Positions 4,535 to 5,389 of a stretch of 10,004 nucleotides of DNA are shown piece after piece. The position numbers were made by a program, and so were the translations under genes. The stretch comes from a virus. Under the pieces are notes generated by a model. It did not search any database, was not told where the DNA came from, and was given only the letters and a program-made list of their open reading frames with translations. The stretch is from UHGV virus genome UHGV-0134101. One strand, 5' to 3'. The number at the start of each line of letters is the position of its first letter. Position 1 is the stretch's first letter.

Positions 4535-5389
4535 TCAGTCCCTCGCCCATGACGGGATTTCAGTCTGGCCATAGTCCTTGCCAGCGAAGTTCTCGGATAC
4601 GCGAGTCTGATTGCGGGCTGGCTGCTTGATGCCTTTCGGTTCAAACAATCCCTGCCAGCCGTTCGCAATGCTCTGGTTGATGATTTCTTCAGGCTGATAT
4701 CCGCTGCACTTGCAACGCTCGAGCAGGTTGATGGCCTGGGTAACCGTCTGCTGAGACTTGATCGGTTTCTTCAGGTCGCGACGATAATCGACCCATGACT
4801 TCCAGACTGAAACTGACAGCCATTCAGGAAGGTCAACACCGGCCGGATCGAACGAAGCCGGTTTGGGGGATTTAGGGGGTTTATTAATATTGTCTTTATT
4901 GTCTTTTGTATGTTTGTCTTTTGTGTTTACCTGATTTGGGTAAGTGTCGTTACCTGATTCGGGTAAACATTTCTTACCTGATACGGGTAAATTTACCTCT
5001 TTCAGGTAAACTTTATTTTCGTTACCTGATTTGGGTAATTTCACCCATTCGCTGACCGCTTTGTTAATCCCCACAGTTCGCCCGATTTGGGTAAATACCC
5101 CGCGCTTAACTAACGCGCTTTTAGCAGCAGAGCATTTGTGTGGGAGGATGCCGGTCAGGGCAGATAACTGATCATTGCTTACCCAGTCTGCCTTTTTGTT
5201 GAAACCGTATGTTTTGCGCATTACTGCCATGAAGACCAGCAGCTGATGCTGAGACAATCCAGCCAGCATGACAGCCTCCAGAAGTTCATTGGCGATGCGC
5301 GTATAGCCATCATCAAGATCTGCCACGCGCGGCTCCTTAGGTGCCACGTCAGGCACAGGGAAATTGATTACTTCGGCAGTGTTTGCCAT
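4535..5389 (-). CDS. Replication initiator, lambda O-like N-terminal domain with a linker and distinct C-terminal domain, 284 aa
   Basis: ORF track 4535..5389 with an AGGAG Shine-Dalgarno 7 nt upstream. The N-terminal region (GYTRIANELLEAVMLAGLSQHQLLVFMAVMRKTYGFNKKADWVSNDQLSALTG) matches the phage replication protein O N-terminal DNA-binding pattern. The iteron array lies inside the Lys/Pro/Asn-rich linker-coding part, as for lambda ori within O. Confidence 0.8.
   Translation of the reverse strand: MANTAEVINFPVPDVAPKEPRVADLDDGYTRIANELLEAVMLAGLSQHQLLVFMAVMRKTYGFNKKADWVSNDQLSALTGILPHKCSAAKSALVKRGVFTQIGRTVGINKAVSEWVKLPKSGNENKVYLKEVNLPVSGKKCLPESGNDTYPNQVNTKDKHTKDNKDNINKPPKSPKPASFDPAGVDLPEWLSVSVWKSWVDYRRDLKKPIKSQQTVTQAINLLERCKCSGYQPEEIINQSIANGWQGLFEPKGIKQPARNQTRVSENFAGKDYGQTEIPSWARD
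4881..4926. other. AT-rich DNA-unwinding-element-like tract adjacent to the iterons
   Basis: TTATTAATATTGTCTTTATTGTCTTTTGTATGTTTGTCTTTTGTG directly abuts the iteron array; in gene orientation it lies downstream of the iterons, as in lambda ori. Confidence 0.6.
4927..5038. repeat. Origin-of-replication iterons: five 17-bp repeats TTACCTGAT(T/A)(T/C)GGGTAA
   Basis: Copies at 4927-4943, 4950-4966, 4974-4990, 4993-5009 (variant TTACCTCTTTCAGGTAA) and 5022-5038, plus a half-copy at 5084-5094. Each has palindromic TTACC...GGTAA ends; spacing is 19-29 bp. Confidence 0.75.

What the first reader, a model, noticed from the sequence alone, without database searches (positions are those of the whole stretch)
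4876..5095. Iteron-type replication origin embedded in the linker-coding part of the O-like initiator gene
Five 17-bp repeats with palindromic ends (TTACC...GGTAA) and a sixth half-repeat are followed, in gene orientation, by an AT-rich tract. This reproduces the lambda ori architecture inside the O gene. The repeats encode the low-complexity Lys/Asn/Pro-rich linker between the N-terminal DNA-binding and C-terminal domains.
Basis: partly seen in the sequence, partly recalled or inferred. Interest (0 to 1): 0.5.

Follow-up and report, generated by a model that had tools for sequence, protein, structure and literature searches.

The report
Lambda-type replication origin inside O gene
This is an ordinary lambda/P22-style phage replication origin (five initiator-binding repeats plus an easily melted A/T-rich stretch) sitting inside the initiator gene of an E. 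coli prophage; the architecture is textbook, and only the repeat sequence appears undescribed.

Summary
Five TTACC-N7-GGTAA repeats lie at 4927-5038 (chance expectation 0.01-0.18 matches per window). They abut a 47-bp tract of 21% GC (4880-4926). All sit in the linker-coding part of a 284-aa Phage_rep_O gene (4535-5389, minus strand), upstream of a DnaC-like loader, in an E. coli chromosomal prophage.

The element is homologous to ori-lambda and to the annotated P22 origin: same position after the conserved SEW motif, near-identical spacing, and the same ACACAAAAGACA start of the AT tract.

In 53 distinct colinear relatives, third-codon-position diversity is 0.31 in the flanking domains, 0.05 in the four AT-proximal iterons and 0.03 in the AT tract. 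The repeats are read in two reading frames, so the constraint is on DNA.

Iteron sequence follows the second half of the N-terminal domain and is independent of C-terminal domain and loader type. Copy number ranges from 4 to 9.

The "sixth half-repeat" (5078-5094) is only a left half-site, confined to some lineages, and unconstrained.

Binding and replication were not tested. This is a new specificity member of a known kind, of low interest.

The parts
4535..5389 (-). O-like replication initiator gene (284 aa). N-terminal origin-binding domain aa 1-115, linker aa 116-175, C-terminal domain aa 176-284.
   Evidence: ORF. Pfam PF04492 covers aa 21-115 at E 6e-33. phrog_678 at E 2e-87. 41% identity to lambda O over aa 1-165. 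RefSeq annotates it as 'replication protein' WP_023277192.1.
5045..5389 (-). Coding region of the N-terminal origin-binding domain. The likely specificity determinant lies in aa 78-115 (window 5045-5158).
   Evidence: In the natural chimera L092, aa 1-77 are 98% identical at DNA level and aa 78-115 only 61%, with a different iteron type; AT tract 100% and C-terminal region 94%. All type-A iteron genes share LPHKCSAAKS[AI]LVKR.
5022..5038 (-). Iteron 1, distal from the AT tract (TTACCCAAATCAGGTAA on the gene strand). An auxiliary site, more variable than the others.
   Evidence: Present with at most 1 arm mismatch in 71 of 75 distinct relatives, but diversity is 0.17 against 0.034 for the core four. 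Absent in the four-iteron Pantoea variants.
4993..5009 (-). Iteron 2 (TTACCTGAAAGAGGTAA), a conserved variant read in a different reading frame.
   Evidence: The same variant centre occurs in GZ7 and Lambda_4C10.
4974..4990 (-). Iteron 3 (TTACCCGTATCAGGTAA).
4950..4966 (-). Iteron 4 (TTACCCGAATCAGGTAA), which equals the family consensus.
   Evidence: 46 of 54 relatives are identical at this site.
4927..4943 (-). Iteron 5 (TTACCCAAATCAGGTAA), which abuts the AT tract.
4880..4926 (-). A-rich, AT-rich tract (21% GC, about 66% A on the gene strand): ACACAAAAGACAAACATACAAAAGACAATAAAGACAATATTAATAAA. Presumed DNA-unwinding element.
   Evidence: Lowest-GC, least-stable class of 50-bp windows in the window. 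Diversity 0.015 overall and 0.033 at third codon positions, against 0.31 in the domains, p = 3.7e-7. 75-100% identical to the AT tracts of lambda, P22, HK97, L092 and L094, where flanking coding DNA is about 50-60% identical in the distant comparisons. Matches about 100 further phage records at about 90% identity.
4865..4879 (-). C5-TAAAT-C5 block (gene strand) bounding the AT tract. A possible GC clamp; its role is inferred only.
   Evidence: Sequence. P22 and HK97 have the counterpart CCCCCTTACCCCC. Diversity rises from 0.04 to 0.13 across it.
5078..5094 (-). The 'sixth half-repeat' (TTACCCAAATCGGGCGA on the gene strand). Probably not a functional, conserved iteron.
   Evidence: 3 mismatches to the consensus. 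The right arm is never GGTAA in any relative. Third-codon diversity is 0.416.
3678..4550 (-). DnaC-like AAA+ helicase loader gene immediately downstream (RefSeq start at 4532). The presumed partner of the O C-terminal domain.
   Evidence: IstB_IS21 at E 6e-16 and Bac_DnaA at E 3e-9. phrog_50 'DnaC-like helicase loader' at E 5e-83. Annotation.

Best explanation
This is the vegetative (theta-mode) replication origin of a lambdoid prophage of E. coli, homologous to ori-lambda and to the P22 origin in gene 18, with its own iteron specificity.

Proposed mechanism, by homology and inferred for this element:
1. Dimers of the O-like protein's N-terminal domain bind the 17-bp near-palindromic iterons (ideal form TTACCTGA-A-TCAGGTAA).
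2. The four AT-proximal iterons, spaced 19/24/23 bp (about two helical turns), assemble an O-some that bends the DNA. Iteron 1, 29 bp further upstream, is an auxiliary lower-affinity site.
3. On negatively supercoiled DNA the adjacent 47-bp A-rich tract melts.
4. The O C-terminal domain recruits the phage DnaC-like loader, which delivers host DnaB to the opened tract.
5. Rightward transcription of the cro-like / YdaT-like / O / DnaC-like operon both supplies the proteins and activates the origin in cis.

Shown here: the anatomy, the homology, the DNA-level selective constraint, and the co-variation of iteron type with the DNA-binding domain.

Inferred from lambda biochemistry: binding, bending, melting, loader recruitment and transcriptional activation.
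For: 1. Significance and anatomy. Five repeats against at most 0.18 expected. The AT tract has 20% GC and is 3.2 sd less stable than the window mean.

2. Gene identity. Phage_rep_O at E 6e-33, O-like PHROG at E 2e-87, and a DnaC-like loader next door. The context is cI-like, cro-like, cII-position gene, O, loader.

3. Positional and sequence homology to experimentally defined origins. Lambda's annotated iterons lie at O aa 117-145, against aa 118-155 here. Spacing is 20/24/23 against 19/24/23. Both AT tracts start ACACAAAAGACA. The annotated P22 rep_origin has four TTACC-N5/6-GGTAA-like repeats plus ACACAAAAGACAATATACAAAAGACAATAAA. HK97 has the same layout with TTAGCC-N5-GGCTAA repeats.

4. 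The repeats act at DNA level and do not reflect a peptide repeat. The five copies are read in frames 0, 2, 0, 0, 2, giving LPxSG(N/K) three times and YxxxVN twice.

5. Purifying selection on DNA. In 53 distinct colinear relatives, third-codon diversity is 0.306 in the two domains, 0.053 in the core iterons (p = 1.8e-7) and 0.033 in the AT tract (p = 3.7e-7). Inter-iteron spacers are free at 0.246 against 0.034 for the core (p = 1.6e-7).

6. Invariant geometry with copy-number variation. 69 of 75 distinct genes have spacing 29/19/24/23. Variants carry 4, 7 or 9 copies made by whole-unit duplications that keep the ORF open.

7. Specificity co-variation. Type-A iterons occur with every N-terminal domain at least 60% identical to the window's throughout its length, whatever the C-terminal domain (window-type, lambda-type, other) or loader (DnaC-like, P-like, none). 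The exceptions, L092 and L093, diverge in aa 78-115. L094-L097 (N-terminal domain 46-50% identical) carry TGTCACC-N5-GTGACA, and L094/L095 keep the window's AT tract (92%) and C-terminal region (88%). L092 swaps only aa 78-115 plus the iterons.

8. Literature. The lambdoid ori is iterons plus an AT-rich tract in the middle of O. In Stx phages with six iterons, only the four next to the AT tract are bound strongly, and the extra ones are weak but required (PMC7466680). O dimers bind 19-bp inverted repeats and open the adjacent 40-bp A+T region on supercoiled DNA (PMC5043065). Ori-lambda is 39034-39160 (PMC3349717).
Against: There is no experimental evidence for this element: no binding, unwinding or replication data, and no paper holds the iteron sequence.

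No solved structure or usable model shows how the N-terminal domain reads the iteron.

The prophage's inducibility is unknown. The window covers only 10 kb, and its left part differs from the 100%-matching strain CX21 outside 3600-7200.

The loader is DnaC-like where lambda has P, so the steps after O-some formation are extrapolated. A window-type C-terminal domain (about 69% identical) also occurs next to P-like loaders in about 7 loci, so the C-terminal domain to loader pairing is not strictly one-to-one.

Conservation of the AT tract could partly reflect its role as a recombination joint or constraint on the encoded TKD-rich peptide.
Confidence: 0.9

Rival explanations
1. The DNA repeats are a by-product of a repeated peptide (LPxSGK-type) in a flexible protein linker, with no cis-acting role.
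For: The repeats lie in a low-complexity, K/N/P-rich linker. Unit duplications add in-frame peptide repeats in L021 and L088.
Against: The same 17-mer is translated in two different frames. Third-codon positions inside the repeats are about 6-fold less diverse than in the folded domains, while the spacers, including first and second codon positions, vary freely. Each repeat has dyad symmetry, which has no meaning for a peptide. The repeat sequence changes together with the DNA-binding domain.
Confidence: 0.02
2. The element is a genuine origin by descent but is a silent relic in a defective (cryptic) prophage that no longer replicates.
For: The element sits in a bacterial chromosome. The cII and cro positions hold YdaT/YdaS-family genes, which are best known from the cryptic Rac prophage (plus own knowledge). 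Inducibility was not tested.
Against: The cI-like, cro-like, O and loader ORFs are all intact. Identical or near-identical O N-terminal domain and ori segments occur on 40-55 kb viral contigs and in isolated phages (Klebsiella GZ7, E. coli 4A7, PhiR26_1 and others). Strong purifying selection on iterons and AT tract across the family implies the element is in use.
Confidence: 0.1
3. The repeats are mainly regulatory O-binding sites (autoregulation, titration or inhibition of incoming homologous phages, handcuffing) or a recombination joint between modules, and initiation happens elsewhere.
For: Cloned lambda iterons plus oop cause inhibition of rep-lambda phages (PMC3349717). Mosaic breakpoints fall at or next to the AT tract in L002, L094 and L092.
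Against: In lambda the same elements are the origin, and the inhibition phenotype is secondary to that (PMC3349717, PMC5043065). The direct juxtaposition of iterons with the least stable DNA of the gene, conserved in sequence from lambda to P22 and HK97, is the hallmark of an origin. No other iteron-plus-AT module was seen in the window.
Confidence: 0.04

Closest known systems
ori-lambda (four iterons ITN1-4 plus a 38-40 bp AT-rich region inside gene O of phage lambda)
   Same: Homologous initiator (41% identity over aa 1-165). The origin sits at the same codons, right after the SEW motif. Iterons are near-palindromic, 17-19 bp. Spacing is 20/24/23 against 19/24/23. The AT tract abuts the last iteron and starts with the same ACACAAAAGACA. 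The repeats are read in more than one frame.
   Different: The iteron sequence differs (TCCCTC-N6-GAGGGA against TTACC-N7-GGTAA). The window has five copies where lambda has four. The C-terminal domain is unrelated. The partner is a DnaC-like AAA+ loader where lambda has P.
Phage P22 origin inside gene 18 (annotated rep_origin 32840-32984 in AF527608)
   Same: The closest characterised relative. The gene 18 N-terminal domain is 61% identical. It shares the TTACC/GGTAA half-sites, has four repeats, and its AT tract is almost identical (ACACAAAAGACAATATACAAAAGACAATAAA) and is followed by a C-rich block.
   Different: Half-site spacing is N5-6 in P22 against N7 here, so cross-recognition is doubtful. 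P22 pairs gene 18 with its own DnaB-type helicase (gene 12) and has no DnaC-like loader.
Stx-phage origins (933W, P27) with six iterons
   Same: Extra iterons lie upstream of a core of four. Only the four AT-proximal iterons are bound strongly and the distal ones weakly (PMC7466680). That parallels the conservation gradient here: core four 0.034, distal iteron 0.17. Copy-number changes add residues to the O linker in both.
   Different: The Stx phages keep lambda-type iterons and the lambda O/P pair. Here both the specificity and the loader differ.
Iteron-type plasmid origins (for example pSC101, R6K, RK2, P1)
   Same: An array of initiator-binding repeats next to an AT-rich unwinding element (PMC5043065, PMC4980987).
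   Different: Plasmid Rep proteins belong to other families and bind mostly as monomers to direct repeats lying outside the rep gene. DnaA boxes are usual in those origins. Here there is no DnaA-box excess, and the origin lies inside the initiator's coding sequence.

Membership tests
Lambdoid O-gene-embedded origin (ori-lambda / ori-P22 type) | The host gene is an O-family initiator (Phage_rep_O N-terminal domain). | tested here: met
   PF04492 at E 6e-33 covers aa 21-115. phrog_678 at E 2e-87. 41% identity to lambda O and 61% to the P22 gp18 N-terminal domain.
Lambdoid O-gene-embedded origin (ori-lambda / ori-P22 type) | Four or more iterons of 17-19 bp with internal dyad symmetry, spaced about 19-24 bp apart, inside the gene just downstream of the N-terminal domain coding region. 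| tested here: met
   Five TTACC-N7-GGTAA copies at gene nt 352-463 (aa 118-155), spaced 29/19/24/23. 0 of 200 shuffles reach 5 matches.
Lambdoid O-gene-embedded origin (ori-lambda / ori-P22 type) | An AT-rich tract of about 40 bp directly follows the last iteron in gene orientation. | tested here: met
   4880-4926 has 21% GC and abuts iteron 5. It falls in the least-stable class of 50-bp windows in the 10 kb.
Lambdoid O-gene-embedded origin (ori-lambda / ori-P22 type) | Sequence homology of the origin core to experimentally defined members. | tested here: met
   AT tract identity is 75% to lambda and 79% to P22 and HK97, where the flanks are about 50-60% identical. The ACAAAAGAC motif occurs twice, 15 bp apart, in all of them.
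Lambdoid O-gene-embedded origin (ori-lambda / ori-P22 type) | Iteron sequence is matched to the initiator's DNA-binding domain (replicon specificity). | tested here: met
   Tested by co-variation only. Seven N-terminal domain and iteron pairings were seen. The natural chimeras L092 and L094 exchange the N-terminal domain (or its second half) together with the iterons.
Lambdoid O-gene-embedded origin (ori-lambda / ori-P22 type) | Selective constraint acts on the DNA itself, beyond what coding explains. | tested here: met
   Third-codon diversity is 0.053 in the iterons and 0.033 in the AT tract, against 0.306 in the domains (p about 1e-7). The repeats are read in two frames.
Lambdoid O-gene-embedded origin (ori-lambda / ori-P22 type) | The initiator binds the iterons and opens the AT tract on supercoiled DNA. 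| not testable with these tools
   Requires EMSA, footprinting and KMnO4 or P1 probing. No structure is available and the single-sequence model is unusable at pLDDT 41.7.
Lambdoid O-gene-embedded origin (ori-lambda / ori-P22 type) | The fragment supports O- and loader-dependent replication in vivo. | not testable with these tools
   The only small 'plasmid' record carrying the module (NZ_CP080357, 4.6 kb) is a linear contig and therefore uninformative.
Iteron plasmids (Rep_3 / pi / TrfA type) | A plasmid Rep-family initiator, with iterons outside the rep gene and DnaA boxes. | tested here: not met
   The initiator is Phage_rep_O only. The iterons are intragenic. DnaA-box matches are at chance level, 2 against 1.9 expected. 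This is a functional analogy only.

The most novel reading that the evidence does not exclude
The A-rich tract may be more than a generic easily melted region. It would be a sequence-specific module (ACAAAAGAC repeated at 15-bp spacing), nearly invariant across O-family origins that differ completely in iterons, C-terminal domains and loaders: lambda, P22, HK97, this prophage, and even an O-like gene on an Ignavibacteriales MAG contig. If so, it would serve as a specific landing or ssDNA-binding site. It would also serve as the universal homologous joint that lets 'recognition region plus iterons' cassettes be swapped between phages. In addition, the TTACCYGA-A-TCAGGTAA iteron with the LPHKCSAAKSALVKR recognition region would define an undescribed, orthogonal O specificity class.
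Probability: 0.3. Interest if true: 0.4.

Novelty: new member of a known kind. Interest (0 to 1): 0.15.

Why it matters
It matters little for principle, because origins embedded in the O gene have been textbook knowledge since 1979.

Practical value:
- It pins the vegetative origin of a widespread group of E. coli, Klebsiella and Enterobacter prophages (about 90 loci found here) that current records annotate only as 'replication protein'.
- It defines their iteron consensus and a core of four sites plus one auxiliary site.
- Natural chimeras map the specificity determinant of O-family initiators to aa 78-115. That could guide the design of orthogonal lambda-dv-type replicons, or predictions of replication incompatibility and inhibition between co-resident prophages.

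Tried and rejected
- Exact iteron strings in the full-text library: no paper holds them.
- PDB by sequence and by a 12-sequence profile of N-terminal domains: no meaningful hit, best E 0.6.
- AlphaFold2 on the single sequence: mean pLDDT 41.7, unusable, so no fold search was run. A deep-alignment search was judged not worth its cost for this verdict.
- Plasmid collection, looking for a natural mini-replicon that would show autonomy. The 4.6-kb Klebsiella 'plasmid' with cI, cro, cII, O, DnaC and ren is a linear contig. The 28-42 kb records look like phage genomes. Neither is informative.
- DnaA boxes: at chance level.
- Rfam: nothing in the window at gathering thresholds.
- Consensus promoter scan: no rightward pR-type hit on the minus strand, and the scan is too crude to conclude anything from that.
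- The terminator-like hit at 4950-4966 is simply iteron 4's palindrome.
- The Mann-Whitney run accidentally included one gene of another iteron type (L096). It was repeated cleanly with the same outcome.
- The class table labels L092 and L093 as type A by default (zero counts). They were inspected by hand and carry a different repeat.

Full report
**Observation.** The + strand between 4927 and 5038 holds five 17-bp repeats with TTACC/GGTAA ends, starting at 4927, 4950, 4974, 4993 and 5022. The pattern TTACC-N7-GGTAA with at most one mismatch occurs 5 times against 0.18 expected, and none of 200 shuffles reaches 5. The full consensus with up to three mismatches occurs 5 times against 0.01 expected. 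The repeats lie inside ORF 4535..5389 on the minus strand. In gene orientation they are followed at once by the A-rich tract 4926->4880 (21% GC). Its 50-bp window ties for lowest GC in a 10-kb window averaging 51% GC, and is 3.2 sd less stable than the mean. Linker aa 116-175 is rich in Lys, Asn and Pro (K12, N9, P7 of 60).

**Context.** The ORF encodes a 284-aa O-family initiator: Pfam Phage_rep_O at E 6e-33 over aa 21-115, phrog_678 at E 2e-87, and 41% identity to lambda O over aa 1-165. Downstream lies a DnaC-like AAA+ loader. Upstream lie a YdaT-domain protein in the cII position, a YdaS-like HTH in the cro position, and a divergent S24 (cI-like) repressor. The segment 3600-7200 is 100% identical to a chromosomal prophage of E. 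coli CX21 and sister strains.

**Homology to defined origins.** Lambda's annotated iterons (39034-39118) cover O aa 117-145, and the window's array begins at aa 118. Both arrays start right after the conserved SEW motif. Lambda's spacing is 20/24/23 and the window's iterons 2-5 are spaced 19/24/23, with one extra copy 29 bp upstream. Both AT tracts abut the last iteron and begin ACACAAAAGACA. P22 gene 18, whose N-terminal domain is 61% identical, carries an annotated rep_origin. It has four TTACC-N5/6-GGTAA-like repeats, an almost identical AT tract and a C-rich block. HK97 has the same layout with TTAGCC-N5-GGCTAA repeats. The window's element is thus a homologue of these origins, beyond a mere look-alike.

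**The constraint is on DNA.** The five copies are read in frames 0, 2, 0, 0, 2, giving LPxSG(N/K) and YxxxVN peptides. In 53 distinct, gap-free colinear relatives, third-codon diversity is 0.306 in the N- and C-terminal domains. It is 0.053 in the four AT-proximal iterons (p = 1.8e-7) and 0.033 in the AT tract (p = 3.7e-7). The spacers between iterons are as free as any sequence in the gene, at 0.246 against 0.034 (p = 1.6e-7). Geometry is fixed: 69 of 75 distinct genes have spacing 29/19/24/23. Copy number still varies by whole units (4, 7 and 9 copies) with the ORF preserved. The distal iteron 1 is more variable (0.17). This echoes Stx phages, where only the four AT-proximal iterons are bound strongly and the distal ones are weak but required (PMC7466680).

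**Specificity co-variation.**
- The TTACC-N7-GGTAA type accompanies every N-terminal domain at least 60% identical to the window's throughout its length. This holds whatever the C-terminal domain (window-type, lambda-type, other) and whatever the loader (DnaC-like, P-like, none). L092 and L093, which diverge in aa 78-115, are the exceptions described below.
- E. coli phage Lambda_4C10 shares the N-terminal domain, iterons and AT tract, but then switches to a lambda-type C-terminal domain and P.
- L094 and L095 show the converse. Their N-terminal domain is 49-50% identical and their iterons are TGTCACC-N5-GTGACA, yet the AT tract (92%) and C-terminal region (88%) match the window's.
- In L092 only aa 78-115 and the iterons differ: aa 1-77 are 98% identical, the AT tract 100% and the C-terminal region 94%.
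- All type-A genes share LPHKCSAAKS[AI]LVKR.

This places the specificity determinant in aa 78-115.

**The sixth half-repeat.** The site at 5078-5094 matches the consensus at 14 of 17 positions. It lies inside the folded-domain coding region. It never has the right arm in any relative, keeps the left arm in fewer than half of them, and has third-codon diversity of 0.42. I do not count it as part of the origin.

**Mechanism (inferred from lambda; PMC5043065, PMC7466680, PMC3349717).** O dimers bind the near-palindromic iterons. The phased array forms a bent O-some. Supercoiling-dependent melting occurs in the adjacent A-rich tract. The O C-terminal domain brings in the DnaC-like loader with host DnaB. 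Transcription through the operon activates the origin. None of these steps was tested here.

**Dead ends.**
- No paper holds the iteron sequence.
- There are no PDB relatives.
- The single-sequence AF2 model is unusable.
- The small 'plasmid' record is a linear contig.
- There is no DnaA-box excess and there are no Rfam hits.

**Verdict.** This is a new specificity member of the well-known lambdoid O-embedded origin family. Confidence in the identification is high and interest is low.

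Noticed in passing
window 5364-5470 (+ strand): A candidate oop-like antisense small RNA. A TG-extended promoter-like site (TTGATT-17-CATAAT) has its -10 element overlapping the O start codon, the position of lambda's pO. The + strand at 5398-5485 folds into two hairpins (dG -26.4, z -4.06), and the second (5426-5458) is followed by a U-rich run. The block ACTGGATCaATyCACAGGAGyAATTATG is conserved in lambda, P22, GZ7 and the window.
   Followed up: partly
L092:1501-2622 (Enterobacter sichuanensis) and L093:1501-2604 (Klebsiella grimontii): These O genes carry an in-frame insertion of about 90 aa, a T5orf172 (GIY-YIG-like) domain (PF10544, E 7e-8), between the N-terminal domain and the linker. 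They also have a different repeat (about four copies of TTYNNNCCGTNNNGGAA at roughly 23-bp spacing) and a diverged aa 78-115. This may be a nuclease-like domain fused into an initiator next to its origin.
   Followed up: partly
L098:1483-2238 (Ignavibacteriales MAG contig JAAYVN010000149.1): An O-like gene (39-44% identity by the two comparisons) with four TTACC-N6-GGTAA repeats, followed by ACAAAAGACAATATTTCAAAAGACAA. The same origin layout and AT-tract motif thus appear on a contig assigned far outside the Enterobacterales. Contamination or transfer was not checked.
   Followed up: no
L021 and L088 (Kluyvera sichuanensis): Iteron arrays expanded to 7 and 9 copies by 24-bp and 48-bp unit duplications. 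These lengthen the O linker by 16 and 32 aa without breaking the ORF.
   Followed up: partly
window 7271-8265 (+ strand): A YafO-family toxin gene at 7846-8265 (PF13957, E 3e-16). It is immediately preceded by, and overlaps, a 194-aa ORF at 7271-7855 that has no Pfam or PHROG hit. That ORF may be an unusual antitoxin partner, located beside the prophage repressor.
   Followed up: no
window 5475-6293 (- strand): The cII and cro positions of the immunity region hold a YdaT_toxin-domain protein (E 2.7e-28, also phrog_163 'CII-like') and a YdaS-like HTH protein, as in Rac-type prophages. Related phages such as Klebsiella GZ7 have a conventional small cII with the same O/ori module.
   Followed up: no
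L044, L045, L056, L070, L071, L074 and L093: A window-type O C-terminal domain (about 67-69% identical) is followed by a lambda-P-like loader (34-36% identical to P), not a DnaC-like one. The pairing of C-terminal domain and loader is therefore not strictly one-to-one.
   Followed up: no
NZ_CP080357.1 (L102), 4,627 bp: A Klebsiella pneumoniae record labelled 'plasmid' consists of just the cI, cro, cII, O, DnaC-like and ren genes, the lambda-dv-equivalent segment. The record is linear, so it is probably an assembly fragment. It may reflect over-replication around the origin in the sequenced culture.
   Followed up: partly
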